Shown here piece by piece: positions 1-42,376 of a DNA stretch of 64,000 nucleotides. The notes under the pieces are model-generated. The model worked only from the letters and a program-made list of their open reading frames with translations, was not told where the DNA came from and ran no database searches. The stretch is from Chloroflexota bacterium (GTDB lineage Bacteria; Chloroflexota; UBA5177), in NCBI GenBank assembly GCA_051002135.1, contig JBPCMQ010000060.1:144008-208007 (forward strand). The letters run 5' to 3'. Each line of letters begins with the position of its first letter. Position 1 is the stretch's first letter. Made by a program: the position numbers and the translations under genes.

Positions 1-2686
1 CTGACCGCCGAATGCCACCCTCGTCCATGATGAGCTTCTTCAGCGTTTCCCATCGTTCTGTTGCGTGCCGACGCTGCTCTTGCCGCTCCTCCCATTCTCG
101 AAAGACCCGCTCCGCCTGCTCTTCATTCCCACCACGCGCTATCTCCCATTCATGCATCTTTCCAGACGCTTCGAAGGGGCCTAACGCCGGCATCACCGTA
201 AAGAAGCCAAACGGCCCCGCTCCAGTGTCCTTGTTTTGCTGCCACAACTGGTAGGTGGTCATTGTCACCTGGTGCATTGCCACGTGCTGAAGCTGGGGCA
301 GGCCATCAAGATTGATGCGGGTCTCGCCGGCCTCCACCCGCTCGATGAAGTGGTAGTAGAGATCGTACAGCCAGCGAGCACCGCCGAGCTTGTACGAGTC
401 GGGATTCCCATCCCGGTCTCTGGCACATGGAGCTGGGACATGGGTAGGGGACACGTAGTCACCAGGCGACGTCCAGACACCGGTGCCGTGCGAAGAGAAC
501 TTGCGGATGCGAAACCCTACGTCGCTGGTCTCCGACCCGGCGCAGCGGTTGTACAGCGCGTATCTCTTGAGCGAGATTCCGATGAAGTACAGCGGCTCAG
601 GTTTTCCCTCCCAGTAATTCTCCTTCTCAATCTCCAGAATCGAGTCGCCGTCCGCATAGGGAGACAACGGTGAAAACCACTCGACGACCTCCCGCACCAG
701 TGCTCGAAACCGTTCGCGTTCCATGCCCTCCGGCCGCGCGAAGAAAATCGAGTCAGTGTCACAGAAGGTATTGGGAAGGCCGCGTTGGACTCCGAGCGTT
801 TCGGCAAGCGCGATGAGGAGTCTGCCACCTGCCGGGATGTGTGTGCCGATGGGTCCCGCGAAGTACGGGCCGACCGCCTCCACGACGTGCGTGCGCCGTT
901 CCGTGTGATCCATGGCGTAGACATCCACGGGTGCGGTGTCGTAGGTCCGCTCCTCGGGATTGTCCTCGACCATGATGCCGTAGCTCGTGGCATTGGCCAG
1001 CAGCTTGAACCCCCGCTGTAGGCCATCGAAGTATTCCCACTCGACGCTGTCCTTCTTGCAGGCCTCCTGCCGGCGGATCACCTGATCGCGGAAGTTGATG
1101 ACGGTTGTAAAAAAGTCCTCCACGTTCAGGTCAATGGCGTACCGATCATCGCCGAGGAAATTCCAGGGTTTGGTCTCCACTCGCCCGTGGGGGACCAGCT
1201 CTTGCACCTCTTCGAAGGCCGGGACATTCCCTGTACGAAGGACGCTGACAATGACATCCGCCAGGGTGTACCAGGTGGACGGTCCAACAACATCCACCAG
1301 TGCAATGTTGGTTGACGCTGTTTTCTGGTCATACTTCCCTCGGACTGGTAGGACGGCCCCGTTAGGCTTGAGTCTGACGAAACACCGCAGCCGGCGCCAT
1401 GTTTCTTTCCGCTGGAGCAGAGTGAGGAGATCGGGAGACTCCAGTAGCTCCCTAATCTCGTGCGTACAGTCGCGGACCTCAATACGCTCTGCCAGCAGCA
1501 GCTCCTGGAGACCCACCAGAGCATGACCGGAGGGATACTCCGACTTGAAGTCAAGGAGTATTCCTTCAACGACCTGAAGACGGTTGTTGACCTCTGTCCG
1601 TCCGCCGTAGTACGCAACCATGCTGTGCCCGATGACCTCAGGGGAAAAGTCTGGATGCTGCTTCATGAACCGAGGGACGCCGAGGTCCTCGAAGTACGCC
1701 TTCCCCAGTGACGCCTCCGAGAAGATTTTCCAGATTTTCTTTGTGAGACCGTGCTTTCGGTAGAGCTCCCGCTCCTTTTGATACAGGCTGAAGGTTGCCG
1801 CCACATCCTGCCGGGCATAAGAGATATAGGCGTCGGTCAAGGCTTTACCGTGGTCACCGTCTGGAGACTTTTTGGGGTCAGTCTGGAATTTGGTGCAGAG
1901 TCCCTTCAGCGAGCAGTCGCCCGGACCGAGTAGGGCGCGGCCGAGGGTCATGGTGTCGAGGAACTTTCCCTTGTAGTGCTTCGTGTACTTCTTGCCGGTG
2001 GAGTTGTGATGCGACACGGAGCGAAACTCTATGCGATTCTTCATGGGGCCAAGATGTTTGATCCGAAGTGGTGGATGGTTGATGCACTCTTCATGCCCAC
2101 AATCGCAGAGGGTGAACCAAAAACCATTGCGATACGTGCCGGCGCCCTCACCATGGGTCGCGGACAGGACCGAGAGATCGAAAGCAAGGTTATGGTTGAG
2201 GCAGAGTGCCTGATAGCCGTAGATCCACTTATAGAAGACCTCGCAGACAAAGTCGTTCTTGGTCATGAGTTTCAAGCCGTTAAGTCGCGCGTACCGTGTC
2301 AGTACCGCCAGGTCATCCGGATTCATGTCGGGATTGTGGAAAAGGCCCTTGTCCGCCAGCGTATCGAGGGCTTCTCGATCCAAAGCGCCGCGTTTGAGCA
2401 GCCGTAGTCGCTTGTCACGGCTGATCCCGTGGACCTCGTAGCAGCCAAAGCGCAGCGTTTGGCTGACATCCGTGGTAGTTTCCGTGTCAACGACTAGTGC
2501 CCATCCTTCATAGGGCCGGCCAATCTCACGGATCGCTAGCTCCTCGGGTGACGGCTCTTCCTGGACCTTGTTATGGTTGCCACGCTTGGAGGCATCCGCT
2601 GTCGATTTGTCCTCGTGTTCCACGATGTAGGCCCGCACGTACTGCTGCATCTGATCGCGGGACGTCGGCACCTCTTCGGACGTCAT
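1..2686 (-). CDS. polB: Family B DNA polymerase (PolB), N-terminal 3'-5' exonuclease plus polymerase domain; partial. The start is at 2686 and the C-terminus runs off the left edge, so more than 890 aa lie in the window.
   Basis: Open minus-strand frame from an ATG at 2686 to position 1 with no stop; it is absent from the ORF track because the stop lies outside the window. Translation shows Exo I VVDTETT, an Exo II-like NLAFDLSVL, a YGYQ Exo III-like motif, motif A DFKSEYPS, motif B KLLANATSYG and motif C FCDTDSIFF. The + strand ORFs across 1-2700 are antisense artefacts. Confidence 0.85.
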   Translation of the reverse strand, partial: MTSEEVPTSRDQMQQYVRAYIVEHEDKSTADASKRGNHNKVQEEPSPEELAIREIGRPYEGWALVVDTETTTDVSQTLRFGCYEVHGISRDKRLRLLKRGALDREALDTLADKGLFHNPDMNPDDLAVLTRYARLNGLKLMTKNDFVCEVFYKWIYGYQALCLNHNLAFDLSVLSATHGEGAGTYRNGFWFTLCDCGHEECINHPPLRIKHLGPMKNRIEFRSVSHHNSTGKKYTKHYKGKFLDTMTLGRALLGPGDCSLKGLCTKFQTDPKKSPDGDHGKALTDAYISYARQDVAATFSLYQKERELYRKHGLTKKIWKIFSEASLGKAYFEDLGVPRFMKQHPDFSPEVIGHSMVAYYGGRTEVNNRLQVVEGILLDFKSEYPSGHALVGLQELLLAERIEVRDCTHEIRELLESPDLLTLLQRKETWRRLRCFVRLKPNGAVLPVRGKYDQKTASTNIALVDVVGPSTWYTLADVIVSVLRTGNVPAFEEVQELVPHGRVETKPWNFLGDDRYAIDLNVEDFFTTVINFRDQVIRRQEACKKDSVEWEYFDGLQRGFKLLANATSYGIMVEDNPEERTYDTAPVDVYAMDHTERRTHVVEAVGPYFAGPIGTHIPAGGRLLIALAETLGVQRGLPNTFCDTDSIFFARPEGMERERFRALVREVVEWFSPLSPYADGDSILEIEKENYWEGKPEPLYFIGISLKRYALYNRCAGSETSDVGFRIRKFSSHGTGVWTSPGDYVSPTHVPAPCARDRDGNPDSYKLGGARWLYDLYYHFIERVEAGETRINLDGLPQLQHVAMHQVTMTTYQLWQQNKDTGAGPFGFFTVMPALGPFEASGKMHEWEIARGGNEEQAERVFREWEERQEQRRHATERWETLKKLIMDEGGIRRS

Positions 2687-3216
2687 GGTAGGTCCCCAGT
2701 CCACGCCAATCGCAGGAGGCACGCGGGAATGGTGACGGGCCGGCCGGCGAATGCCTGGACGAACCACGCTGTGAATCGGAGCACCGCCAGCACTAGGTCT
2801 CGGCAGATGGAAGGTCGATCCTGGGGTGCGGTCCGCTCAATATGAAGCGAGCAGACATCCAGAATGCCCTGAAGGAGGAAGAGAAGTGGGCGGCTGCCGG
2901 CGGTCCACTCGCTGCTCCAGGCTTCTCGTTGCCGTTGTGACAGGAGCTGGTGACAGTTGAGGCAGGTAGGAATCGTCCATGTGGAGTTCCGCCTCCCGGC
3001 GACATGATTATCTTCAAGCGGTCCCCGGCATTCGCAGATTGAGCACCAGCCCTGCCGGCGACGATGGCCGTCGGCGCAGTTCAGGCACACAACCGTCCCA
3101 GCCACCTTGCGCACGCATGTCTGGTAGTACTCGCCGCAAGCACATGGTCCCAGCTCAGGCCGCACGACTGGCACCGTTCTCCGACGAAAACATGCGTTCA
3201 AAGTCCCCTGAGTCAA
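2683..3216 (-). CDS. HNH endonuclease-like zinc-finger protein
   Basis: CLNC...GH...EDNH...N...CLNCH arrangement (CxxC/HN/CxxCH) consistent with an HNH nuclease fold. Its TGA stop overlaps the PolB ATG (ATGA at 2683-2686), suggesting translational coupling. The ORF begins at a TTG; the true start may lie downstream. Confidence 0.6.
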   Translation of the reverse strand: MTQGTLNACFRRRTVPVVRPELGPCACGEYYQTCVRKVAGTVVCLNCADGHRRRQGWCSICECRGPLEDNHVAGRRNSTWTIPTCLNCHQLLSQRQREAWSSEWTAGSRPLLFLLQGILDVCSLHIERTAPQDRPSICRDLVLAVLRFTAWFVQAFAGRPVTIPACLLRLAWTGDLP

Positions 3217-3883
3217 AGTCTTGTTCGTCCAGCCATTCGAGCACCACGTTCAAATCTGTCTCCAGCCGGTACTGATTACCATCGACATCGCGGATGATGG
3301 TGTGTTTGAACCGTGCCAGAGATTGGTGCCCCTTACCGTTCTGGGCATTCCCGACAATGGCCCAGTACGTTCCCATCCGAGACAGATTCCTTTTGTCAAG
3401 GTCCACAGGAGGAAAGTACTCACCGTCGGACGTGAGAATGATTGAATGACCTGCCGGTCGTATACCCCAGCGGCGCGAGGTCCTGTCAGGCCGGTCAAGG
3501 AGCTGGTGCTCCTCGTTGACACGTCTCACCGTCTCCGGTGTTGTTCCCGCCTTCCTTGCCGCCGTTGTCAGTGAGTCGCCTTGGCTGATGTACTTAACGG
3601 TTTGGTAGTACTTGTCGAGCGTGCTTCCAGGTATACGTTCGATCTGGCCGATAGCCCGTAGACGAGAGATGGACGATTCACCTCTGGAAGAACGCGCATG
3701 CCCGCGCTGTTGAGCCTTGGTCAATCCAGGATGTGAACTGCCTTTTGTGCGTAAGTCGTATTCACTCGACTTGTAGATGCCGGGCGAAGCGCGTTGAATG
3801 CTACGAGCGGCTTCGCGCCCACTGACCTGCCGCGTTCTTCCCGTTTTCTTGTTGGTGAGGGTGTAGGTCCGGCGCGTGCTCAT
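3155..3883 (-). CDS. Hypothetical protein with a predicted helix-turn-helix region (element-associated)
   Basis: 242-aa ORF upstream of HNH/PolB on the same strand. The segment DKYYQTVKYISQGDSLTTAARKAGTTPETVRRV looks like an HTH. No family was recognised beyond that. Confidence 0.45.
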   Translation of the reverse strand: MSTRRTYTLTNKKTGRTRQVSGREAARSIQRASPGIYKSSEYDLRTKGSSHPGLTKAQQRGHARSSRGESSISRLRAIGQIERIPGSTLDKYYQTVKYISQGDSLTTAARKAGTTPETVRRVNEEHQLLDRPDRTSRRWGIRPAGHSIILTSDGEYFPPVDLDKRNLSRMGTYWAIVGNAQNGKGHQSLARFKHTIIRDVDGNQYRLETDLNVVLEWLDEQDFDSGDFERMFSSENGASRAA

Positions 3884-4383
3884 GACGCCGGCTCGCGGCC
3901 AATCGTGCCTTGGGTGGAGGGATGTTCCTGCCTAGTGCTACACTGATTTGACATTGTTTATTCCTAAACCTTGCCCTGTTGGAACCTTTGGTCGGGAAAC
4001 CAGCAGGGCAATTTTGTATTTGGCGCTATGTCGTGGCCGGGTGAGGCTCCCCTTTGCCGGACTGCTTCGAGGCGTCCCTATCCACGGGCATACAGGGACT
4101 CGGAAGGGAATGAAGTTGAAGATAATGGTCGAGGGCCATGGCAACGATGGCACTACGAGTGAGGCCGGTTCGTGTCGAAACTCGCCTCACAGCGTTTCCC
4201 AGAGACTGCGGGAGCATTACGGAAAACGCTGCCCGATCAACGCCGTTCTTGAGGTCATTCATCGGTGGTTGACTCCTGTAGGCTGGTTGTTAAAGGCACC
4301 CATCCGGCAGGCCTTGGGCACAGTCTCCCATTTGGTCCAAACATGACTTCCCGCTAAAATGTAGGTAAATACCGTCATGAGGA
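3884..4383. promoter_or_regulatory. AT-richer divergent intergenic region between the leftward HTH-HNH-PolB genes and the rightward HTH-Cas1 genes (putative divergent promoters)
   Basis: A ~500-bp stretch with visibly lower GC (for example ctacactgatttgacattgtttattcctaaacc) lacking a convincing ORF, flanked by divergently oriented genes. Confidence 0.3.
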
Positions 4384-5370
4384 ATGCGAGCTTTGGATCG
4401 GACACACACGATACCGGAGCTGGTCGCGGCAGCCGCTTCAAGCAACGTTGTGGTGAGCGAGCGCCAGATCGTTGAGTGGTGCCGGGACGGCCTTTTACCC
4501 ACGCCCTCACGACCTTCAATTCCGGGAAAACGTGGTCGTGGCCCGCTACGTTTCCCAGAGCCGGCTCCGGATGCCGTCGCATGGCTCGGTCGCTGGCGAC
4601 GCTCGATTGACGGAATTGAGCGGGTGAAGACGTGGCTCTGGCTTGAGGGCTTTGACTACGTCAGTACTGATGGCACCGCGATACAAGATGCTCTGAACTT
4701 GTGGATGAGAGCGGTATGGACAACGTTTCAGGCCGTATTCCCAGGGCTAACCGACACTGCGACGTTGCCGTCCGGAGAAGACTTAGGAATAAATGACGAG
4801 CGGCGAGACTCGATCCTGGATACGTTGGACAGGATCGTGACTGCACCTCTCGAAAACTCTGGCCATCAAGCCGGGCTAAGAGAACAAACAGATATCTCAA
4901 CGGCCCTGCTTGGAGTCCCGGTTAACGTGGAAAACTCCTCGGCTCCCTCCGCATTGTTGGCACTGGACGCTCTTAACAATCACTCGGCTGTTCGTCTTCC
5001 CATTAGCGCCATCCTCCAAACGCTTTGGGACCGTCAACCATCGATGGACGACTTCTACGACAAATTAGGACTGCCTGCGCTGATTCAAGGGGGAATTGAC
5101 ATTCACCACATTCGCCGGGTTTGGCAGGGAATAAGTGCGGCAGTTGAAGTTTTAGCATCGCCTGGCGTGCCGTCAGAGGTTCAAAACCTTGTGCCCCTAC
5201 TTCCGTTTCTCCAGGAAGTTCAGCGGCGATCCTTCGCCAGCGATCCCCGACTCATAACCATGGTGCTTGCTCTCATGATGCGCGTCGCTCGGCCTGGTGA
5301 TGCTGAACGATATGCCCGACGTATGGTGAATCGAAGGAATCGTATTCGGACGCACAATGCCACTCCGTGA
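4384..5370 (+). CDS. Hypothetical protein with an N-terminal excisionase/MerR-like HTH (HTH_17-like) domain
   Basis: The N-terminus IPELVAAAASSNVVVSERQIVEWCRDGLLP resembles Xis/HTH_17 DNA-binding domains. The gene overlaps the downstream cas1 by 14 nt, suggesting co-transcription. Confidence 0.55.
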   Translation: MRALDRTHTIPELVAAAASSNVVVSERQIVEWCRDGLLPTPSRPSIPGKRGRGPLRFPEPAPDAVAWLGRWRRSIDGIERVKTWLWLEGFDYVSTDGTAIQDALNLWMRAVWTTFQAVFPGLTDTATLPSGEDLGINDERRDSILDTLDRIVTAPLENSGHQAGLREQTDISTALLGVPVNVENSSAPSALLALDALNNHSAVRLPISAILQTLWDRQPSMDDFYDKLGLPALIQGGIDIHHIRRVWQGISAAVEVLASPGVPSEVQNLVPLLPFLQEVQRRSFASDPRLITMVLALMMRVARPGDAERYARRMVNRRNRIRTHNATP

Positions 5371-6784
5371 GTACCGGCACCTCACGTGCCCCCAGTGTGA
5401 GGCATCATTTGTCACCAAGGAACGCACACAAACCTATTGCTCGCGTGCCTGCTCATGTGCCGCCATGCGTTTGCGCCTTGCCGAAACACGAGCGTCCGGC
5501 GAGACTCCTGGACATGGTGGCACCGCTGCCGAGACTCGCCGTGCGTCCCTTGCAAAAAGACGTGCATCCGGCGAGGTTATGGGATGGGCTCTGCACAGAC
5601 AGAAGATGGCAGATGGAGAGGAGCGCATAGCGTCGCTTGATGGCCGGCCGGTCCTCGTGCCGGCACGAAACGGTGTGCCCGAGCACTTGAAGTTTACGCT
5701 CGACGGCGATGCCTACCGAGATGCCGGTGAACGCTGGGAGGTCCGTGCCGGCGCCATGGAGGCCTCGGCCACCCTGGTGTTGGCCGGCCGAGGATGTGGG
5801 CTGCGAGTCCTTCGAGGTGATCTTGTCGCACAACCAGGGCTCACGCACACGACCTGCGACGGTGAGGAGCGGCGCCTGTACCGAGGGCAACACGGAATCG
5901 AAACCATTGTGCTGGTGGGAACGGCCGGATCGGTGACCTTGGCTGCACTTCAGTGGTGCCGCGAGCAGGACATCACGCTCCTATCAGTGGATCGTGAGGG
6001 ACGCATCAGCGGTGTTGTCTCACCGGTCTCACCGGCCGCAGCGCATCTTCGGCGACTCCAGTACACGCTCCTTCCGCTCCACCTCGCCAGGATGCTGGTC
6101 TTATGGAAGCTCCGAGAATGCTGCCGCGACGAGCGAAGCTCCCAGCTGGAGGAGTACGCTCGACGCTGCGAGGACGCGGCACCCGTCGAGACGCTTCGGA
6201 CGGTAGAAGGCCAGGCCGCACGGGTCTACTGGCAGAGCTGGGAAGGCCTGCCTCTTACCTGGGTCGGGCCTCCCGTCCCTCCGCTCTGGCATCGCTTCGA
6301 TGGTCGAATATCGCCGCTATCGCAGTCCGGACGCCATGCGACACATCCCGTGAACGCAATGCTGAACTTTGCCTATGGCGTTCTCGCGGGCCACGTCGAG
6401 CGCTGCATCGTCTCCCGAGGCCTCGATCCCGCGATGGGCTCCCTGCACGCTCCGAAGGATGGCCGGCCCTCCCTCGTCTACGACCTCATGGAGCCCTTGC
6501 GCCCGCACGTTGATGCCCGGCTTCTCCCGTGGGCGTCGTCCCAGAGCTGGCGGCGCATCGACTTCCCCGTGTCCGTGTCCGGCGTCGTGCGGCTCAATCC
6601 GCAGCTGGCACGGTGCGTGGTGATTGTGGCGTCTCTACCGGCTGCCGCAGTGGAAGGCGTGCTCGACGCGTACGTCGGATTCCTGCGGTCGTCGGCCGGG
6701 CCGCGTGTGGGCGACCCCGAACGGTCGCGTGCTCGGGCGGGCCGTGCTCTGGGGAAGCGGCAGAAGCGGCTGACGAGGGCGTAG
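5357..6784 (+). CDS. cas1: Cas1-family integrase (casposase-like), with an N-terminal CxxC...CxxC zinc-ribbon extension
   Basis: Cas1 signature region NAMLNFAYGVLAGHVERCIVSRGLDPAMGSLHAPKDGRPSLVYDLMEPLRPHVD. Compare E. coli Cas1 [23 protein letters not shown], which contains the conserved His and Glu. The N-terminus CPQCEASF...CSRACSCAA is a Zn-ribbon. There is no cas2, cas4 or repeat array nearby; PolB lies 2.7 kb away. Confidence 0.85.
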   Translation: MPLREYRHLTCPQCEASFVTKERTQTYCSRACSCAAMRLRLAETRASGETPGHGGTAAETRRASLAKRRASGEVMGWALHRQKMADGEERIASLDGRPVLVPARNGVPEHLKFTLDGDAYRDAGERWEVRAGAMEASATLVLAGRGCGLRVLRGDLVAQPGLTHTTCDGEERRLYRGQHGIETIVLVGTAGSVTLAALQWCREQDITLLSVDREGRISGVVSPVSPAAAHLRRLQYTLLPLHLARMLVLWKLRECCRDERSSQLEEYARRCEDAAPVETLRTVEGQAARVYWQSWEGLPLTWVGPPVPPLWHRFDGRISPLSQSGRHATHPVNAMLNFAYGVLAGHVERCIVSRGLDPAMGSLHAPKDGRPSLVYDLMEPLRPHVDARLLPWASSQSWRRIDFPVSVSGVVRLNPQLARCVVIVASLPAAAVEGVLDAYVGFLRSSAGPRVGDPERSRARAGRALGKRQKRLTRA

Positions 6785-6975
6785 GGACACGACGGGCGAT
6801 GGTGCTCAATGGGGGTAGTGGAGCTCCCTCGGGCGATGGACACGGGCCCGAGCGCTGGGCGCTAAGCGGTCCCCGGAGCGATATGGGGTCAGAGGCCATA
6901 CGGGCTATGGAACGGCGTGGTGAGGCGCAGGGAAGCCTGTTTATGGTCGTCTAAGGTAGGTCGTGTCATGGCTAG

Positions 6976-7035
6976 GCGAGGATCGTTAGCTGCGAGGATC
7001 GTGCAGGCCGCCTTCGCCTGCTGCGAGGATCGTGC
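6976..7035. repeat. Three direct copies of GCGAGGATCGT(GC), two of them as CTGCGAGGATCGTGC with a 31-bp period, just downstream of cas1
   Basis: Copies at 6976-6986, 6990-7004 and 7021-7035. Nearby are the subrepeats cgggcgatgg (x2) at ~6793 and ~6829. The function is unknown; they may be terminal subrepeats of the element or binding sites. Confidence 0.5.
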
Positions 7036-7531
7036 GAGTGCTTTGACAGCTTGCGAGCGTCAGCGAAGATGACGAAACTGTTGACGGAGAGAGGCGATGA
7101 GGGAATACAGGCGTCACCTAGAGGGCAGCGTCTATATACCCCTCATGTTATCACAGGGGGTTTACACTACACGATTTCGAGGGGGCTTGACGGACGCTCG
7201 TCTCGCGGACGTACTGTCTGTCCTGGCCGCGGTAGACTCGGCCAGCGTCAGTCTCGCCATTGGACCATCCGCAGGCGCGGCTTTGAGAGAGCAAGGCCGG
7301 TCCGGACACTGGAACGTCCCGCCGGTCGCAGGGCACCTACCAGTTCGCAGTCACGCTGTTGAAAAAAGCCTGCGACATGTCGCTACGATGGAAGTGGCCC
7401 GGCAATGCCGGGTTGGTCGGGACCGGGCCCAGTGGGACCGAAAATGAGAGGGACTCTGGGATTCCATCTTCGATGTCGCCCCGTGGACCGCTCGCGCTTT
7501 CATACAGAAGGGCGACGCACAGCGCAGGCCA

Positions 7532-8116
7532 GTGCGAAGGATTCTCGGTATGCCGCATAGAAAGAAGGTTATCTTCAGCATTGCGCTTAGCGCGGGAGCA
7601 ACAATCCCAATAGCTCGTGCCGTGGCCAGACCGCTATCGGTCGTTCGCGCCGCTGGGGCTGTCTCAATTCCTCCCCACTGCCGGCCTGGCCCCAGGCCCA
7701 GAGTGCTCTCCTCACTGGTCGGTCCCGGCGTCGGATACTATCCGATCTGGTCGATAGGGATCGGCGGGCATCCAGCTACCCTCCCCTGCGGCAACTCGTG
7801 TGTACGGACCCCCCACGGCTGGGGACACAAGAACCTGCTGGTGGTTGCGCCACAGTTCCGCGGCCGAGTCACACTTCAGGGCAGTAAGGTCCACGGAGCG
7901 GGTCGTCTGTGGTTCGAGAATGAGGACCCCTACCATATCATGGTGAAGTACGTGAAGATCCTGCACATTGATCCCGATTGGCAGCGTATCCCTTCCGCGA
8001 AACGGGCCTACATCCAGTTCCCCGGCGGCATCATTTTCCCGCGACCCGGTCTGTACTACCTGAATGCACATTATCCCGGTGACAGTTGGTGTTTCACCTT
8101 TACTGCTCGCCACTAG
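7532..8116 (+). CDS. Hypothetical secreted protein (N-terminal signal-peptide-like segment)
   Basis: 194-aa ORF. The N-terminus MPHRKKVIFSIALSAGATIPIARA looks like a signal peptide. It is Gly/Pro-rich and no family was recognised. Confidence 0.4.
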   Translation: MRRILGMPHRKKVIFSIALSAGATIPIARAVARPLSVVRAAGAVSIPPHCRPGPRPRVLSSLVGPGVGYYPIWSIGIGGHPATLPCGNSCVRTPHGWGHKNLLVVAPQFRGRVTLQGSKVHGAGRLWFENEDPYHIMVKYVKILHIDPDWQRIPSAKRAYIQFPGGIIFPRPGLYYLNAHYPGDSWCFTFTARH

Positions 8117-8729
8117 CCACGCGCACACGTATTGAAGGATCTCGCTGTCCGCTGCGACAGCCGCGTCACTACGCACGAAACTGTCCTCGCCAGGCAGTTA
8201 CATACATCGTCGATGACTGCTGGATAAGTCGGACCCGTGCGCTCAATGACGGAAGCGAGAACGGAGCGCGTCAGGTCGCGAGGGATGCCATCAACGGATC
8301 GGACAACCCCTGGGGGCTCGCCGTGACGATACGCATCAATCGTGATCAAGGCAGTCCCGCACGCCGTTACCCGCTCGATGAACGCGGGCTCCAAGTCACT
8401 CTTGTGCCCTCCGCGGCTGTGAGCGTCGACAATCGCGTCATAGGGTCCTGCTCCGTGACCGCGCCAAATGAACCAGGTACATCACGCCCGCGTCGAACGA
8501 TCTCCGGGTCCGGAATCAGTGCGTTCCTCCGGACGAGTCTCCATTCTTTGATTCGCGTTTGTTGGCGCCTGGCGCACGCACTGCAACCCCCCGCGCACGC
8601 TGCGAGTAGGTTATCCGATGCCCTACCGCTTGTTCGCCCAAACATCCGGGTCACAGCCTGACGCGTCATGTCAGGTTCGTTCTGCAAGCTGGGCAGGTGC
8701 AGGCGATAGACCGTGTCGCCGACGGGCAC
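8113..8729 (-). pseudogene. Possible frameshifted gene remnant: two consecutive minus-strand ORFs in different frames
   Basis: ORFs 8367..8729 and 8113..8394 look protein-like (not Arg-rich) but overlap in different frames. The surrounding 8100-9200 region has only short overlapping ORFs on both strands. Confidence 0.25.
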
Positions 8730-9246
8730 ATCTCATTCAGCGGCGGTCCCGGCATGTTTTCGCGCAGATCGATGTGGGCATCACAGGTCTGGAGTATTGC
8801 CAGTCCTTTCGTGTCGATAGAGCTGACTCGCGAGGCGGCGCCCTCGGTCAGAGTTATCCGGGGAGGGCAAACCCTCACGGCAACCTTTAAGCCCAATCCG
8901 GGTGCTACCGGCAAGCCCTTCTACATGGATTCGACGTACTGCTCGACCGGTCCATCGGGCTCGTGGACGAACCAACATCTTCCCTGGACGATCCCCCTAC
9001 GCGACCCCCGTCTATCCGTACTGCAAGCAGCGGCAGTGGTGGCACGCTCATCGGGTGGCCGAATCATGCGGTGGCATTTGTGCGATACATCAGGCACTGA
9101 CAGCCGGACACTGTCGAGGAGCGACCCAGCGACGCGACGGCCCGCTCCGCACGGCAACGGTTGTCCTTGCTGATCCGATGGTCTTGTTTGTGTAGTCGAA
9201 AGGTCGCGATATTGCTATAGAGCGGGCTTGAGTATATACTAAAGGC

Positions 9247-9453
9247 ATGAGAAAAACAACCCTTACGATTGATGACGAGCTTATCGCGCAGGCCAAAGAA
9301 GCCTTGGGCACAACTGGTCTGAAAGCGACGATCGATGCCGCTTTGCGTGAGGCGGTCAAGGCGCGAGCACGGCAAAATCACGCGGAGCGGCTACGGACCA
9401 TGAACGGGCTCGACCTGGACAAACCTGAGGTGATGAACCAGGCGTGGGAATAG
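9247..9453 (+). CDS. vapB: Type II antitoxin VapB (DUF2191/RHH-like)
   Basis: [21 protein letters not shown] is the classic VapB N-terminus. It is 68 aa and overlaps the downstream PIN toxin by 10 nt. Confidence 0.8.
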
Positions 9454-9863
9454 ACGCGACATACATGGTGGACACGAGCGCTCTTGCGCGCTTCCCCAAC
9501 CCGGCGGTCTCTGCCATTCTCGCGCCGCTTTTCGCCGCTGGTCGCGTCGCTACCTGCGGGATCATCGATCTAGAGGTGCTCTACAGCGCGCGCAACCGGG
9601 CAGACATGATGGCACTGCGGCGTGAGCGTCGGGGCTTCGTCCAGGTACCAATCCTCCCTGCTGACTTCGAGCGCGCACTTGATGTTATGACCCTCCTGGC
9701 CCGACTCGGGCAGCATCGATCCGCCCGTATACCTGATCTCCTGCTGGCTGCGACGACCGAACGCGCGGGCCTGTGTCTGCTCCACTACGACCAGGACTTC
9801 GACAGGATCGCCGAAGTTACTGGACAGTGGGCAGAGTGGGTTGTGCCACGTGGCTCCCTGTAG
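9444..9863 (+). CDS. vapC: Type II toxin VapC (PIN-domain ribonuclease)
   Basis: The PIN N-terminus YMVDTSAL contains an acidic residue, and HYDQDF lies near the C-terminus. It is 139 aa and paired with vapB. Confidence 0.85.
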
Positions 9864-11010
9864 CCGCAATCAGAGCCGCCAGCAACGCGGCTCGCGGTGC
9901 GATGGAGTCCACGCGTACGTACTCGTCGGTGCTGTGCGCCCCACCCCCAATCGGCCCTAATCCATCAAGTACCGGCCGTCCGGCGGATGCGGCGGTATTG
10001 CCGTCCGAAGCTCCGCCCGTCGCGGTGTCCTTGACTTCCTGCCCTATGTCGGCCGCCAGACTCTGGTAGAGCCGAACGAGATCCGCGGTGGATTCCGACT
10101 TGTGCATCGGATGGTGATCGATGGTTATGTCAAGAGCCAGGTCGGTGCCATCAACGGAGCGATGGGAGACCGCGTCCTCGACGCGGCCAATCGTCTCCCG
10201 CAACAGGTCCAGCGAATGCGCTCGGAGCTCAAATCTGGCCTGGGCTTGGTCCGGTACCACATTAACGGGACCGCCCCCCTCGACCTTGCCAACGTTGAGC
10301 GTGACCCCCGGAATCGTCCCATTGAGGTGCTCCAGCGCGACGATGAGGTGCGCAAGCTCGTGGATCGCGCTACGTCCGTTCTTGTGGTTGACTCCGGCGT
10401 GTGCCGCCGTGCCCATCACGCGAAGCTCGCCGGTCGCCACGCCCTTACGGGCCGACACAATGTCTCCGTTCTCACGGCCGGCCTCGAGCACCAGCACGAC
10501 GTCCGCCTGCTCTGCCTCCGTTCGCACCAGCTCACGGCTGAATCGCGAGCCGGCCTCTTCATCGCTGTTGTACAAGATTGAGATCGATGCAAATGAGTCG
10601 CACGCCTGCCGGCGGAGCAGTCGCAGCGCATAGAGTATGGACAGAACGCCCGCCTTCATATCGCAGGTTCCCGGCCCGATGGCTCTCGCGCCATCGAGAG
10701 CGAAGGGACGCTCAGCAACAGTGCCTGCGGCGTAGACCGTATCCATATGCCCTAGAAGCAGCACCTTCCCCGCACCCGCGCCCTCGAATCCGACGACGAT
10801 GTTGTCGCCTACGGCGCCCTGCCGATGAATCTGGATGTGGCCGTCCATAGCCTCGTATTGAGCTTGCAGCCAAGCGCCAACGAGATCGACTCCTGCCTTG
10901 TCGTGCGTCCCGGAATCGATCGAGACCAAAGTCTTTAGATCCAACAGGTAGTCTTCGAGGAGCGCTTCCATGTCCACGACTGCTGTTTGCAGATCGAAGC
11001 CGCGGCTCAT
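9817..11010 (-). CDS. M20 family metallopeptidase (ArgE/DapE/carboxypeptidase G2-like)
   Basis: Metal-binding motifs HMDTV, DMKAG and SDEEAGS are present. The protein is 397 aa. Confidence 0.85.
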   Translation of the reverse strand: MSRGFDLQTAVVDMEALLEDYLLDLKTLVSIDSGTHDKAGVDLVGAWLQAQYEAMDGHIQIHRQGAVGDNIVVGFEGAGAGKVLLLGHMDTVYAAGTVAERPFALDGARAIGPGTCDMKAGVLSILYALRLLRRQACDSFASISILYNSDEEAGSRFSRELVRTEAEQADVVLVLEAGRENGDIVSARKGVATGELRVMGTAAHAGVNHKNGRSAIHELAHLIVALEHLNGTIPGVTLNVGKVEGGGPVNVVPDQAQARFELRAHSLDLLRETIGRVEDAVSHRSVDGTDLALDITIDHHPMHKSESTADLVRLYQSLAADIGQEVKDTATGGASDGNTAASAGRPVLDGLGPIGGGAHSTDEYVRVDSIAPRAALLAALIAATGSHVAQPTLPTVQ

Positions 11011-11070
11011 AATGGTGCCGCATTCCGTAGCTGGCGCAGTCCAGCAGCTTCGCGGAGGGAATCCACTCGT

Positions 11071-12036
11071 TTATCTCCTAAAGCCGACCTGGCGGTGCTG
11101 GGCGTAGGCGGGAAGCGCCAGGAGCCACTTCTCCACGCTACCGACCCTTGCCCTCTCGGTGAAGACGTCGAAGTTTCGCCGCTCAATCTTGACGAGGATC
11201 TGCTCGTAGAGGCGAGCGGAAAGGTGGACGGCGAACTTCGCGTAGGGGTCCAGAAGACCGGTACCGTCCTCGCCTCGCCGATAACGTTGGCGCGCCTCGC
11301 TCATCAAGAGCCGCATGACCGTGCGGAGCCCCGGGGAAAGGTGCCCCATGCGCACGGAATCCGGCGAGCAGCCGGCGCGAGCCAGCTCGGCCAGCGGCAG
11401 GTAGAGCCTGTCCCTACGGACGTCTTCGCCAACATCGCGCAGGATATTCGTGATTTGCATCGCGACCCCGAGATCGTTCGCAGCCTCGAATGCCTCTGGA
11501 GCTTCCGCCCCCAGGACATGCGCCATCACGATGCCGACACTGCCGGCCACGAGCGTGCAGTAGTGAATCAGCTCCTCGAGCGTGTCCACGGTTTGCATCC
11601 GCACGTCAAAGCGCGCGCCCTCGATTACTGTGACGAAGTGCTCGATTGGAATCCGATACCGGTCCGCCACTCGCAGCATCGGGCCCAGCGACGGAAAGGC
11701 TTCAGCCCGGCGGCCTAACAGCGCATCTTCCCATCGGCGTAGCTCCGCGAAAACCTCGTCTACGGACCCGTGTCCCGGCTCATCGACGAGGTCGTCGATC
11801 GTCCGAAAGTAGGCATATATCAGACGAACGTCGGACCTCACGGGTTGTGGCAGAAACAGAGACGCCAGATAGAACGTCCGCGCCCTTGAGCGCATCGCGG
11901 TATCCGGCCGCAGTAACGCCGGCGAGCATGGGACTCTACGCACCTGCCCAGTCCTCCTCCACGCGCTCCGCCGTGAGGCGGGATCCCATGATGACCATGG
12001 GGACGCCGCCCCCAGGCACCGTGCTCGCTCCGACAA
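11071..12036 (-). CDS. crtB: Phytoene synthase (squalene/phytoene synthase family)
   Basis: RTFYLASLFLP and YAYFRTIDDLVDE match the Asp-rich substrate-binding motif. The ORF's N-terminal extension overlaps crtI, so the true start is likely downstream. Confidence 0.8.
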   Translation of the reverse strand: MSERARCLGAASPWSSWDPASRRSAWRRTGQVRRVPCSPALLRPDTAMRSRARTFYLASLFLPQPVRSDVRLIYAYFRTIDDLVDEPGHGSVDEVFAELRRWEDALLGRRAEAFPSLGPMLRVADRYRIPIEHFVTVIEGARFDVRMQTVDTLEELIHYCTLVAGSVGIVMAHVLGAEAPEAFEAANDLGVAMQITNILRDVGEDVRRDRLYLPLAELARAGCSPDSVRMGHLSPGLRTVMRLLMSEARQRYRRGEDGTGLLDPYAKFAVHLSARLYEQILVKIERRNFDVFTERARVGSVEKWLLALPAYAQHRQVGFRR

Positions 12037-13432
12037 AGTACAGGTTGTCCAGGCCGGCGGCCTTGTTTGCCGGTCGCATGTACCCGACCTGGAAGAAACT
12101 GTGGGACAGGCCGAATGCGGACCCGCGGGTTACGTTGTAGTCGGCCACGAAGTCGTCGGGTGTGTAGATGCGCTCGAACACGACATGATCCTTGAGCTTC
12201 TGGAGGCCGACGTCCGTCAGGCGGTCATATATCTTCTGTTTGAACGCCTCGATCTCGCTGGTCCAATCGGTTGCTGGAGAGGAGCTGGGCACCGGCACCA
12301 GCACGTATAAACCCTCTTTACCGGCCGGCGCCAAGGAGCGATCAGTGCGGCCGGCAGCGCAGGTATAAAACGAGGGGTCATCCGGAAGACGACCGTGTCG
12401 GAAGATCGCGTCGAAGTTTCCGGCGACGTCGGCGGAGAGGTACACGTCGTGGTGATTCAGCTCCGGGTACTCTCGATCGAGTCCGAGAAACATCAGAAAC
12501 GCCGAGGAGCCGTGGTTGAGATGCCTCATCCTTGTCCGGTGCGCGGCGCTCTGCGCTTGCCTGGGTATCAGCGCATCATAGACGTACGGAAGATCGGCGT
12601 TGGCTATCACAACGTCCGCGTCGACGATTCTGCCGTCGGTAAGCTCGACCGCAAGCACGCGGCGGCCCCGCACCCGGATCCTCTCCACCTCGGCTCGCGT
12701 CTGCACACACACGCCCAAGGTCTCCGCCAGGCCGCGAAGACTCTCCACGATCTGGTACATGCCACCTCGGGGAAACCATATGCCCTGTTCAAGCTCCGTG
12801 TAGGGGAGGAGCGAATACACAGCCGGGGCATGATGCGGTGCGAGTCCGAGATACATGCTCTGAAACGTGACCGCGGCGACAATACGCGGGTCCTTGAAGT
12901 AACGGCGCGCGTGTCTGTCGAGCTTACGCAGCGTGTTGGTTGAGAAGAGATAGTACAGGTTGGCAGGCGTCGTGAACTGGTACAGATGATTGAAGTTGCG
13001 CTCCACGAAGCGGTCTCGCGACACCCGGTACTTGTAGCCGGCGTCATCGATATAGCGCCGAAAAGCATCTGCCGCTCCCGGTTCCAGGTCCTCCAGCTGC
13101 CGCGCCATCTTCTCTCGATGGGACGAGAACTCGAGGCTCCAGCCGTCCGCGAAGTGGACACAATAGTTGGGATGAATGCGCACGAGTTCGAGGTAATCTT
13201 CGAGGTCGTGGCCCACGGAGGCGAACAGGTTGTCGAGAACATCTCGCATCAGCAGAAGCGTCGGACCGGTGTCGAAGGTGAAGCCGTCCTCTCGCAGGAC
13301 GTTGCATCTACCACCGACACAGTTGTTCTTCTCCAGGACCGTCACGTCCCACCCGGCGTGCCGCAATCGAATGGCCGTCGCGAGCCCGCCGAGACCTGCC
13401 CCTACGACAACCGCTGACCTTCGCACACGCAC
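11936..13432 (-). CDS. crtI: Phytoene desaturase (CrtI family FAD-dependent oxidoreductase)
   Basis: N-terminal FAD motif VVVGAGLGGLATAIRL..VTVLEKNNCVGGR. It is 498 aa and lies upstream of crtB. Confidence 0.85.
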   Translation of the reverse strand: MRVRRSAVVVGAGLGGLATAIRLRHAGWDVTVLEKNNCVGGRCNVLREDGFTFDTGPTLLLMRDVLDNLFASVGHDLEDYLELVRIHPNYCVHFADGWSLEFSSHREKMARQLEDLEPGAADAFRRYIDDAGYKYRVSRDRFVERNFNHLYQFTTPANLYYLFSTNTLRKLDRHARRYFKDPRIVAAVTFQSMYLGLAPHHAPAVYSLLPYTELEQGIWFPRGGMYQIVESLRGLAETLGVCVQTRAEVERIRVRGRRVLAVELTDGRIVDADVVIANADLPYVYDALIPRQAQSAAHRTRMRHLNHGSSAFLMFLGLDREYPELNHHDVYLSADVAGNFDAIFRHGRLPDDPSFYTCAAGRTDRSLAPAGKEGLYVLVPVPSSSPATDWTSEIEAFKQKIYDRLTDVGLQKLKDHVVFERIYTPDDFVADYNVTRGSAFGLSHSFFQVGYMRPANKAAGLDNLYFVGASTVPGGGVPMVIMGSRLTAERVEEDWAGA

Positions 13433-13659
13433 CCCCAGTACTTTCCAAGGTATCAGTGATGCGGCTCGGAGAAAGACGTCTGTTTCCGAACCGCATCCAG
13501 ACTGGGTGCGTGCCGGTACACTAGAGCGCGTCAGCAGGAGGCCATAACGGTAAATAATGGCTCGGCGGGACGGCTCGAGCGCCCAAGCATGATCGAAGGA
13601 TGGTAGTGAGCCAGAGGTGAGAGATCGCGCGTCGCACAGCCGGCCCTAGTCCGCCAGTC

Positions 13660-36203: not shown

Positions 36204-36264
36204 CGCGCGAATCCTCCCGGAAGTCGCGAGTACTCGCGGGTCTGACTGTCATGGCCAAAGACAC

Positions 36265-36340
36265 CCGCAGTGTTATACATCCGTAGTGTTATACATGCGC
36301 AGTGTTATACATCCGCAGTCTTATACATCCGTAGCGTTGG
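36265..36340. repeat. 16-bp tandem repeat (~4.75 units): CCGCAGTGTTATACAT / CCGTAGTGTTATACAT / GCGCAGTGTTATACAT / CCGCAGTCTTATACAT / CCGTAGCGTTGG...
   Basis: Intergenic, with no unique spacers, so it is not CRISPR. The final partial unit is the 5' arm of the REP-like element at 36329. Confidence 0.8.
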
Positions 36341-42038: not shown

Positions 42039-42266
42039 GAGAGTCCCTTTCGCCTCCTTGTCAGTGAGTCCATTGCCATTCCTGGGGAGCCGTCTCAAAA
42101 TATGGCGACATCCTTCCACGTTGACAACGGTGCAGGATGCATGCCACAGACGGTCGCACGAGGAGGCGGTGAAGCGTCGGGTCATGCTCAGTGCGCATAA
42201 TTCGGTCATCGGGAAGCACGTTTCCGGACTGCTTCGCCCACGTGCGCGCTGGTCGCGGACAGAACG

Positions 42267-42288
42267 GGCCTGAAGGCCCGGAGCTACG
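42267..42288. repeat. REP-like palindromic element, copy 3 (inverted orientation): GGCCTGAAGGCCCGGAGCTACG
   Basis: It is the reverse complement of the CCGTAGC..GGCCTTCAGGCC motif. It is followed by a 15-bp direct repeat GAGCTACGAGAGTGA x2 (42281-42311). Confidence 0.6.
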
Positions 42289-42320
42289 AGAGTGATGAGC
42301 TACGAGAGTGAGACAGGACG

Positions 42321-42343
42321 GGTCTGAAGGCCCGGAGCTATGG
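42321..42343. repeat. REP-like palindromic element, copy 4 (inverted orientation): GGTCTGAAGGCCCGGAGCTATGG
   Basis: It is a degenerate copy 54 bp from copy 3, in the divergent intergenic region. Confidence 0.55.
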
Positions 42344-42376
42344 GCGTGAACGCCTCGTCGATAAAGGAGACATGAG

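What the first reader, a model, noticed from the sequence alone, without database searches (positions are those of the whole stretch)
1..7060. Casposon-like self-synthesizing element: stand-alone Cas1 + family B DNA polymerase + HNH, with no cas2 and no CRISPR array
A bona fide Cas1 (HxxxE signature region almost identical in pattern to E. coli Cas1) sits 2.7 kb from a large PolB that carries all exonuclease and polymerase motifs. An HNH nuclease is coupled to PolB by an ATGA overlap, and two HTH proteins flank an AT-rich divergent promoter. No cas2, cas4 or repeat-spacer array occurs anywhere in the 64 kb. This gene set is the defining content of casposons (Cas1-driven self-synthesizing transposons), which are mostly known from archaea and only rarely described in bacteria. 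A copy in a high-GC bacterial chromosome, next to ordinary housekeeping operons, would be a noteworthy and possibly undescribed element. It is partial here: PolB runs off the left edge.
Basis: partly seen in the sequence, partly recalled or inferred. Interest (0 to 1): 0.9.

Follow-up and report, generated by a model that had tools for sequence, protein, structure and literature searches.

The report
Family-3 casposon in a Chloroflexota genome
This is an integrated copy of a casposon, a known but rare kind of transposon that moves with a Cas1-type integrase and carries its own DNA polymerase; it extends a described bacterial lineage to a Chloroflexota host, and I could not show whether this copy is complete.

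Summary
Window 1-7142 holds a stand-alone Cas1 with all catalytic residues, a divergent family B polymerase with every exonuclease and polymerase motif, an HNH-like zinc-finger protein and two HTH-like proteins. There is no CRISPR array in the 64 kb. The 6.5 kb left of the window holds the rest of PolB and a type I restriction-modification operon, not cas2 or an array.

All core genes are conserved in the same order in relatives from other metagenomes, and three of these are proven casposons. L008 has ~430-nt TIRs and a 14-bp TSD. L007 (Nitrosomonas) has 38-nt TIRs and a 14-bp TSD, and its TIR is almost identical to that of NitAL212-C1, a published family 3 casposon. The element therefore belongs to a known kind. 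What is new is the host phylum (Chloroflexota MAG) and a sub-lineage with long TIRs.

In this copy only one end is plausible: GGGGTATAT at 7134-7142, 357 bp past the Cas1 stop. No partner repeat exists in the 5.8 kb past PolB. The copy either carries the restriction-modification operon as cargo or is truncated. Interest is moderate, about 0.35, not 0.9.

The parts
2..2686 (-). Family B DNA polymerase, N-terminal 895 of 1129 aa. The C-terminal 234 aa lie left of the window (L001 12761-13464).
   Evidence: A stop-free frame runs to the left edge, and the full gene is on L001. It has 122 homologs at 28-50% identity, including Nitrosomonas and Methanosarcina PolBs, some with PF00136 or PF03175. 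All exonuclease and polymerase motifs are invariant. The family profile hits 48 PDB family B polymerases down to 9e-8.
2683..3216 (-). HNH-like zinc-finger nuclease, 177 aa. The start codon is uncertain. Its stop overlaps the PolB start as ATGA.
   Evidence: The ATGA overlap is seen. The gene is conserved directly upstream of PolB in seven related loci at 37-48% identity. Invariant residues are the Cys pairs C25/C27, C44/C47 and C58/C61 plus E68..H71-V72-A73 and C85-L86-x-C88-H89. There is no Pfam or PDB profile hit, and the AF2 model was unusable at pLDDT 45.
3155..3883 (-). Conserved 242-aa protein with a probable HTH segment (residues ~98-125).
   Evidence: tblastn finds it at 32-42% identity in all seven related loci. 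Its orthologs give many sub-threshold HTH Pfam hits, best 4e-4. This copy gives none and only a weak LysM-like PDB match at 0.004.
4026..4262 (-).
   Evidence: JGI called the gene on L001 at 8499-8735. It is 33% identical (E 4e-6) to the RHH_1 protein at the same position in L008. This copy has no Pfam hit.
4263..4383 (.). 121-bp divergent intergenic region between the RHH-p242-HNH-PolB operon and the p328-Cas1 operon.
   Evidence: Sequence. No sigma-70-type promoter scored. The regulatory role is inferred from position only.
4384..5370 (+). Conserved 328-aa protein: an N-terminal winged-HTH (MerR-like) domain followed by a poorly modelled helical domain.
   Evidence: The database search found only 6 distant homologs at 32-41% identity plus the self-match. 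tblastn finds it upstream of cas1 in L004/L008 and L011/L012. In the AF2 model residues 1-100 have pLDDT 85-94. The top fold matches are MerR-family regulators but are weak (E >= 0.37, probability up to 0.95).
5357..6784 (+). Casposase: a Cas1 homolog of 475 aa with an N-terminal CxxC...CSxxC zinc ribbon.
   Evidence: It matches Pfam Cas_Cas1 at 3.5e-40. The best PDB hit is the M. mazei casposase 6OPM at 2.2e-14. E284, H364, D376 and E379 are invariant across 16 homologs, and the zinc ribbon is shared by most of them. Only 35 homologs were found in 5.8 billion proteins.
6976..7035 (+). Three direct copies of GCGAGGATCGTGC (two exact, one with 2 mismatches) in the subterminal region; possible protein-binding sites.
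   Evidence: Similar GGATCGT-containing repeats lie inside the TIR of L008 (D7). The function is inferred.
7134..7142 (-). Candidate Cas1-side terminus, GGGGTATAT read inward.
   Evidence: It matches the terminus consensus GGGRTAKRT built from L007/NitAL212-C1 (GGGGTATGT) and L008/L012 (GGGATAGGT). The pattern occurs only 3 times in 64 kb on both strands, against 1.34 expected. This site has the right orientation and lies 357 bp past the Cas1 stop, compared with 348 bp in L008 and 435 bp in L007. It shares 13 of its first 20 nt with the NitAL212-C1 TIR. No partner was found, so it is not proven.
7143..7156 (+). Candidate 14-bp target-site duplication copy, TCATGTTATCACAG.
   Evidence: The length is inferred from the 14-bp TSDs of L008, L007 and NitAL212-C1. 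No second copy exists in the window or L001, so it is unverified.

Best explanation
Window 1-7142, plus sequence left of the window, is an integrated casposon of the bacterial 'family 3' lineage, the one that includes NitAL212-C1. It sits in an intergenic region of a Chloroflexota chromosome.

The mechanism below is inferred from characterised archaeal casposases and from the published casposon model. Nothing was measured for this element.

- The zinc-ribbon-Cas1 casposase binds the element ends and joins their 3'-OH (terminal C of ...ATACCCC-3') to staggered positions 14 bp apart in the target. Gap repair then yields a 14-bp target-site duplication.
- The element's own family B polymerase, which has an intact 3'-5' exonuclease, copies the element.
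- The HNH-like nuclease, translationally coupled to PolB, and the two HTH-type proteins probably assist end or target recognition and processing.
- The RHH protein probably regulates the two divergent operons.

Shown: the gene identities, the conserved gene order, the intact catalytic motifs, and TIRs plus 14-bp TSDs in relatives.

Not shown: the second end of this copy, and any activity.
For: - Cas1 domain and catalytic residues.
- The closest solved structure is the M. mazei casposase 6OPM, which makes 14-bp TSDs (PMC6977970).
- PolB motifs and profile matches to family B polymerases.
- PolB is 45-50% identical to Nitrosomonas PolBs.
- Cas1, HNH-like and p242 are conserved in all seven related loci and p328 in four of them (tblastn). 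A PolB homolog is encoded in each of these loci.
- Relatives are bounded by TIRs: L008 has 437 nt at 99%, L007 has 38 nt at 100%, and L011/L012 have at least 131 nt at 89-90%.
- Relatives have 14-bp TSDs.
- The L007 TIR is nearly identical to the published NitAL212-C1 TIR, which has a 14-bp DR.
- The terminus-like motif lies at the expected distance and orientation.
- There is no CRISPR array, and a restriction-modification operon rather than cas genes lies to the left.
- Core genes have lower GC/GC3 than host genes: GC3 0.56-0.71 against 0.73 +/- 0.04.
Against: - No inverted partner of the Cas1-side subterminal sequence and no second TSD copy occurs in the 5.77 kb recovered beyond the PolB stop.
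- In L008 and L011/L012 the TIRs start at the 3' ends of PolB and Cas1. That is not the case here.
- The locus is 100% identical and in the same place in every assembly that carries it, so there is no sign of mobility or of an empty site.
- The HNH and HTH assignments are at motif level or below threshold.
- I did not build a formal Cas1 phylogeny against reference casposases.
Confidence: 0.85

Rival explanations
1. The copy is an immobilised casposon remnant. The PolB-side end was lost, for example when the type I restriction-modification island was inserted or recombined next to PolB. The genes persist but the element can no longer transpose as a unit. This rival concerns completeness; it does not dispute that the element is a casposon.
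For: No TIR partner or TSD lies within 5.77 kb of the PolB stop. In the closest relatives the TIR overlaps the PolB 3' end. The hsd genes have a GC3 (0.80-0.89) unlike both the core genes and the host. Casposons without identifiable TIRs are on record, namely MetBur-C1 to C3 and a deteriorating M. psychrophilus element (PMC4046053).
Against: All six core ORFs are intact with catalytic residues preserved. L007 and NitAL212-C1 carry several kb of cargo between PolB and the TIR, so a distant end is normal for this lineage. The recovered flank stops inside hsdR.
Confidence: 0.4
2. It is a leftover CRISPR adaptation gene (cas1) that happens to lie near an unrelated polymerase.
For: NCBI annotates the protein as 'CRISPR-associated endonuclease Cas1'. 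It passes the TIGR00287 cut-off.
Against: There is no cas2 next to it, no array in 64 kb or in the left flank, and no other cas gene in the neighbourhood. The Cas1-PolB-HNH-HTH linkage recurs in relatives that are bounded by TIRs and TSDs. No subtype-specific Cas1 model is passed.
Confidence: 0.02
3. It is a domesticated, non-mobile Cas1-PolB-HNH module working in defence or repair inside a defence island, between a type I restriction-modification operon and a VapBC toxin-antitoxin pair.
For: The module is flanked by hsdMSR on one side and by VapBC about 2.4 kb away on the other. No evidence of movement exists for this copy.
Against: No PADLOC model matches anything except Cas1. Relatives with the same genes are flanked by transposon hallmarks in unrelated genomic contexts: rpsT in L008, and MFS transporter genes in L011. 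A terminus-like motif is retained.
Confidence: 0.05

Closest known systems
NitAL212-C1 and other family 3 (bacterial) casposons (Krupovic et al. 2014, PMC4046053; 2016, PMC4779613)
   Same: - The same core genes: Cas1, PolB, an HNH gene and HTH-type genes.
- The Cas1 has an N-terminal zinc-binding domain, as described for NitAL212-C1.
- PolB is 45-50% identical to Nitrosomonas PolBs, and Cas1 is 37-42% identical to the Cas1 of L007. The L007 TIR is almost identical to the NitAL212-C1 TIR.
- The candidate terminus GGGGTATAT resembles GGGGTATGT.
- The position is intergenic, as reported for all family 3 elements.
- TSDs in the lineage are 14 bp.
   Different: - The host phylum is Chloroflexota. 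Family 3 was reported from Actinobacteria, Alpha- and Betaproteobacteria and 'Ca. Acetothermum' in the papers I could read.
- The core is very compact: six genes in 7.8 kb.
- An RHH gene heads the PolB operon.
- No Pfam HTH hit was found at the C-terminus of Cas1 or PolB, although the PolB tail reads like an HTH.
- The second TIR and the TSD were not found in this copy.
Chloroflexota relatives found here (L008/L004, L011/L012; uncharacterised metagenome contigs)
   Same: They are the closest sequences: Cas1 about 50-52% identical, PolB 46-47%, HNH 47-48%, p242 38-42%, p328 31-34%. The gene order is the same, and so are the RHH gene and the zinc-ribbon Cas1. The L008 host is Chloroflexota by its YchF cluster.
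   Different: Those elements are 12.6 kb and carry extra genes, including an SNF2-family helicase and paralogs of p242. Their TIRs are 130 to 437 nt long and overlap the 3' ends of cas1 and polB. L008 also has a clear 14-bp TSD. The window copy has none of these long repeats.
Family 2 casposons of Methanosarcinales and the M. mazei casposase (PDB 6OPM; PMC6977970)
   Same: The best solved-structure match for Cas1. Methanosarcina PolBs are detectable homologs at 29-31% identity. They share the HNH gene, the two HTH genes and the 14-bp TSD.
   Different: They are archaeal and often target tRNA genes. Their casposase has a C-terminal HTH rather than an N-terminal zinc ribbon. Sequence identity is much lower.
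CRISPR-Cas adaptation module (Cas1-Cas2)
   Same: The same Cas1 fold family and the same catalytic residues.
   Different: There is no cas2, no array and no effector genes, and the gene is linked to PolB and HNH. Relatives make 14-bp duplications rather than the 25-50-bp repeat duplications of CRISPR systems.

Membership tests
Casposon (superfamily) | Encodes a Cas1-family integrase with the catalytic residues conserved | tested here: met
   Pfam Cas_Cas1 at 3.5e-40. E284, H364, D376 and E379 are invariant in 16 homologs. The best PDB hit is the casposase 6OPM.
Casposon (superfamily) | cas1 is not part of a CRISPR-cas locus (no cas2, no array) | tested here: met
   There is no array in the 64 kb or in L001. 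Neighbouring ORFs lack Cas domains. The left flank is PolB plus a type I restriction-modification operon. I did not scan every small ORF of the 64 kb for cas2.
Casposon (superfamily) | Encodes a family B DNA polymerase close to cas1 | tested here: met
   The gene lies 2.7 kb from cas1. All motifs are invariant. The family profile hits PDB family B polymerases. Some homologs carry PF00136 or PF03175.
Casposon (superfamily) | Terminal inverted repeats at both ends | tested here: inconclusive
   One terminus-like motif lies at 7134-7142. No partner is found in the 5.77 kb recovered beyond PolB, and that flank ends inside hsdR. The relatives L008, L007 and L011/L012 do have TIRs.
Casposon (superfamily) | Target-site duplication flanking the element | tested here: inconclusive
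   The candidate 14-mer at 7143-7156 has no second copy in the available sequence. Relatives have 14-bp TSDs.
Casposon family 3 | Cas1 and PolB cluster with those of bacterial casposons such as NitAL212-C1 in phylogenies | not tested
   I built no tree with reference casposases. The indirect evidence is strong. PolB is 45-50% and Cas1 37-42% identical to those of Nitrosomonas elements, and one of these (L007) has the NitAL212-C1 TIR. Identity to Methanosarcina PolBs is only 29-31%, and the match to the M. mazei casposase is weak (E 2e-14).
Casposon family 3 | An HNH endonuclease and conserved HTH protein(s) accompany Cas1 and PolB | tested here: met
   Orthologs occur in all seven related loci. 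The HNH motif ExxHHVAG...CLNCH and the Cys pairs are invariant. The HTH calls are below threshold or structural only.
Casposon family 3 | Bacterial host and intergenic insertion | tested here: met
   The host is a Chloroflexota MAG. The candidate end falls between cas1 and the next credible gene at 7550.
CRISPR-Cas adaptation module | cas2 adjacent to cas1, and a repeat-spacer array | tested here: not met
Protein-primed PolB elements (family 1 casposons, pipolins, polinton-like) | A protein-primed or primer-independent type of PolB, often with a tyrosine recombinase (pipolins) | tested here: not met
   The profile's best PDB matches are archaeal replicative PolBs and Pol alpha, not phi29-type enzymes. 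No recombinase gene is present in the locus. A few homologs give weak PF03175 hits, so this is a sequence-level statement only.

The most novel reading that the evidence does not exclude
The copy is intact, and its PolB-side end lies just beyond hsdR. That would make it a casposon of at least about 14-16 kb that carries a complete type I restriction-modification system as cargo. It would also be the founding described example of a Chloroflexota casposon sub-lineage. That sub-lineage includes 12.6-kb relatives with ~430-nt TIRs and a zinc-ribbon casposase, and would be suitable for the first biochemical study of a bacterial casposase.
Probability: 0.3. Interest if true: 0.5.

Novelty: new member of a known kind. 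Interest (0 to 1): 0.35.

Why it matters
Casposons are thought to be the ancestors of the CRISPR adaptation machinery. Nearly all experimental work has been done on archaeal family 2 elements, and only a handful of bacterial (family 3) casposons have been described. None of the papers I could search reports one from Chloroflexota.

This locus and its relatives show three things:

- The NitAL212-C1 lineage extends into Chloroflexota.
- The lineage keeps a conserved gene core: zinc-ribbon Cas1, PolB, HNH-like and p242 in every relative examined, with the RHH and p328 genes also found in the closest ones.
- It uses 14-bp duplications like the archaeal enzymes.

That is a useful addition to the catalogue and a source of candidate bacterial casposases and defined ends (best taken from L008 and L007). 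It does not change the picture of what casposons are.

Tried and rejected
1. **TIR search in this copy.** I ran generic repeat finding on L001. I ran Smith-Waterman alignments of the PolB-side flank against the Cas1-side flank with shuffled controls. I also searched for k-mer direct repeats that could be a TSD, for terminus motifs and for the subterminal-repeat motif. Nothing rose above chance.

2. **Extending the left flank.**
   - The genome-contig scan with PolB found no relative.
   - An exact 30-mer from hsdR found nothing.
   - The metagenome scan with HsdR returned only relatives of at most 67% identity and not the source contig.
   - The 278,875-bp NCBI contig that carries these proteins is not in the contig index.

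3. **Empty site.** Look-ups with the M20 peptidase, the 188-aa flank protein and its 65% homolog gave only collinear or very short contigs.

4. **'Tandem second casposon' idea.** The sequence ...ATACCCC | 14 bp | GGGGTTTAC... at 7134-7167 resembles two ends sharing a TSD. However:
   - The right-hand motif does not fit the terminus consensus.
   - It shares nothing further with the left arm.
   - It has no partner in the window.
   - The region beyond it holds a genuine conserved gene and no casposon-gene remnants.

   I rejected it as unsupported.

5. **The 87-bp 'insertion' in PolB of L002** is a run of Ns, that is a scaffold gap.

6. **GCCGCACAC**, shared by the L007 and L008 TIRs, is not enriched in L001.

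7. **HNH confirmation.** Pfam on five orthologs, a PDB profile search and single-sequence AF2 all failed.

8. **No tRNA or Rfam family** lies near the element.

Full report
**What is in the sequence**

The first 7.1 kb of the window holds two divergent gene sets.

- On the minus strand lie four genes:
  - a 78-aa ribbon-helix-helix gene (4026-4262);
  - a 242-aa gene (3155-3883);
  - a 177-aa Cys-rich HNH-like gene (2683-3216);
  - a large polymerase gene (2..2686) that runs off the left edge.
- On the plus strand lie two genes:
  - a 328-aa gene (4384-5370);
  - a 475-aa cas1 (5357-6784).
- The HNH stop and the PolB start overlap as ATGA.
- A JGI metagenome contig, L001 (19,234 bp), is 100% identical to window 1-12760 in reverse orientation. 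It extends 6,473 bp further left.
- L001 shows that PolB is 1129 aa. After a 374-bp gap it is followed by hsdM, hsdS and hsdR of a type I restriction-modification system, which runs to the contig end.
- No CRISPR-like array exists in the window or in L001.
- Source annotations place the host in Chloroflexota (MAG proteins PZS02823.1 and MGI8826976.1).

**Gene identities**

Cas1:
- It matches Pfam Cas_Cas1 at 3.5e-40 and the general TIGR00287 model. It passes none of the subtype-specific models.
- Its best solved-structure match is 6OPM, the Methanosarcina mazei casposase (2.2e-14, covering residues 139-422; PMC6977970).
- In an alignment of 16 homologs, E284, H364, D376 and E379 are invariant. 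Most members share the N-terminal CxxC...CSxxC zinc ribbon.

PolB:
- As a single sequence it is not recognised by Pfam, NCBIfam or PDB searches. Only PHROG polymerase families hit its exonuclease part.
- It has 122 homologs at 28-50% identity, including proteins annotated as family B polymerases in Nitrosomonas and Methanosarcina.
- A 24-sequence alignment shows Exo I-III, motifs A, B and C, and KxY as invariant columns.
- The alignment profile matches 48 solved family B polymerases through motifs A-C. These are archaeal PolBs and Pol alpha.

HNH-like protein:
- The assignment rests on invariant motifs only: three Cys pairs, ExxHHVAG and CLNCH.
- Pfam, a PDB profile search and a single-sequence AF2 model all failed.

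The other three proteins:
- The N-terminal 100 residues of the 328-aa protein fold confidently as a winged HTH. Fold matches to MerR-family regulators are weak.
- Orthologs of the 242-aa protein give repeated sub-threshold HTH hits.
- The 78-aa protein is 33% identical to a Pfam-recognised RHH_1 protein at the same position in a relative.

**Evidence from relatives**

- Homologs of this Cas1 are rare: 35 in 5.8 billion proteins, the best at about 50% identity.
- Every homolog context I fetched has the same neighbours. These are a 1000-1156-aa PolB homolog, the HNH-like gene directly upstream of it, the p242 homolog and, in the closest relatives, the p328 homolog and an RHH gene.
- Three relatives have transposon ends:
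  - L008 lies on a 188-kb contig whose YchF protein clusters at 90% identity or more with a Chloroflexota YchF. It has 437-nt inverted repeats at 99% identity. Allowing for the near-palindromic outermost bases, this gives ~425-nt TIRs flanked by the 14-bp direct repeat CTCGGGTACGCGTT. The element is 12.6 kb and lies between rpsT and an IS/ABC-transporter region.
  - L007, from a Nitrosomonas MAG, has perfect 38-nt TIRs and the 14-bp duplication ACGTGACAATATCC.
  - L011/L012 have TIRs of at least 131 nt that are cut off by contig ends.
- The L007 TIR is GGGGTATGTTAACTTCTCCCAAAACGCCGCACAC... It is almost the same as the published TIR of NitAL212-C1, GGGGTATGTTAACTTCTCCCAAACGCCGTACACTT, which has a 14-bp direct repeat and is classified in family 3 (supplement of PMC4046053).
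- The window element therefore belongs to the lineage of a described bacterial casposon family.

**Ends of this copy**

Cas1 side:
- Read inward, the sequence at 7142 begins GGGGTATATAGACGCTGCCC.
- It fits the terminus consensus GGGRTAKRT derived from the relatives.
- That pattern occurs three times in the whole window on both strands, against 1.34 expected.
- This occurrence has the right orientation and lies 357 bp beyond the Cas1 stop. The corresponding distance is 348 bp in L008 and 435 bp in L007.
- From the expected density, I estimate the chance of such a hit falling in a ~150-nt zone on the correct strand at about 0.002.
- Three GCGAGGATCGTGC repeats lie 107-166 bp inside it. They recall the GGATCGT repeats inside the L008 TIR.

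PolB side:
- Nothing comparable exists. I found no inverted match, no second copy of the putative 14-bp TSD, no terminus motif and no subterminal repeats in the 5.77 kb beyond the PolB stop.
- Attempts to recover more flank failed.
- Two readings remain:
  - The restriction-modification operon is cargo and the end lies beyond hsdR. L007 and NitAL212-C1 carry several kb of cargo at that position.
  - The end has been lost.
- Composition does not decide between them. Core genes have GC3 of 0.56-0.71, host genes 0.73 +/- 0.04, and hsdM and hsdR 0.80-0.89.

**Mechanism**

The following is by homology and inferred.

- The casposase joins the 3'-OH ends of the element to target positions 14 bp apart, as shown for the archaeal enzymes (PMC6977970).
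- The element's polymerase replicates it.
- The HNH-like protein and the DNA-binding proteins are accessory factors for end or target handling and for regulation (model of PMC4046053).
- The intact ORFs and catalytic motifs suggest the proteins are functional.
- There is no evidence that this copy moves. It is identical and in the same place in all four assemblies that contain it.

**Verdict**

- The novelty was overestimated. This is a new member of a known kind: family 3-type bacterial casposons in a new host phylum.
- The completeness of this copy is unresolved.

Noticed in passing
left of the window: L001 13838-19232 (window coordinates about -1077 to -6471): A complete-looking type I restriction-modification operon (hsdM 516 aa, hsdS 379 aa, hsdR more than 850 aa and cut by the contig end) starts 374 bp after the PolB stop. 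Its GC3 (0.70-0.89) differs from that of both the casposon core and the host genes. The nearest HsdR relatives in metagenomes are only 67% identical.
   Followed up: partly
window 7134-7167: The arrangement is TATATACCCC | TCATGTTATCACAG (14 bp) | GGGGTTTACAC. A terminus-like motif, a spacer of exactly TSD length and an inverted G-run look like two casposon ends sharing a TSD, as in the tandem Methanosarcina casposons. No partner or remnant genes were found to the right, so it may be coincidence or a small hairpin.
   Followed up: yes
window 7550-8116 (+): A 188-aa ORF with a signal-peptide-like N-terminus and no Pfam hit belongs to a real conserved family. A search of 1.84 billion representatives found 131 homologs at E <= 1e-3, the best at 65% identity. 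Its function is unknown. JGI called only its last 58 codons.
   Followed up: partly
window 8089-9240: About 1.1 kb between the 188-aa gene and vapB has only implausible, Arg/Pro-rich ORFs (NCBI calls of 190 and 90 aa). There are no Pfam hits and no homology to the relatives' loci. It may be non-coding or decayed sequence.
   Followed up: partly
window 9247-9863 (+): A VapB antitoxin (68 aa) and a PIN-domain VapC toxin (139 aa) lie between the element and the M20 peptidase and carotenoid genes.
   Followed up: partly
window 5476-5575 (inside cas1, N-terminal linker): An internal 72-bp-spaced duplication, 28 nt at 82% identity, encodes two LAxxRASGE peptide copies between the zinc ribbon and the Cas1 domain. 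The closest homologs P0002 and P0003 share it.
   Followed up: no
L001 about 13590-13720 (window about -830 to -960), in the PolB-hsdM gap: A short uncalled ORF encodes a CxxC...FCSxxCRxxAYRRRR zinc-ribbon motif that resembles the N-terminal zinc ribbon of the casposase. It has no Pfam hit.
   Followed up: partly
L011 and L012 (JGI 3300050308 / 3300050306): The same flanking genes (a 142-aa ORF and an MFS transporter) are joined to the PolB end of the element in one contig and to the Cas1 end in the other. This is either assembly ambiguity across long TIRs or the element in both orientations. L005 and L010 are contigs of 12.0-12.3 kb made of the element alone, with breaks inside the TIRs.
   Followed up: no
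window 36261-36340: Four to five tandem copies of a 16-nt unit (ACATCCGCAGTGTTAT) lie in an intergenic position.
   Followed up: no
window 42258-42349: Two 38-nt direct repeats at 87% identity, spaced 54 nt apart, lie just upstream of the ORF that starts at 42377.
   Followed up: no
L008 7936-9384: The relative's casposon carries three paralogous copies of the C-terminal domain of the p242 homolog, including a 111-nt direct repeat at 86% identity. It also carries an SNF2-family helicase gene that is absent from the window copy.
   Followed up: no
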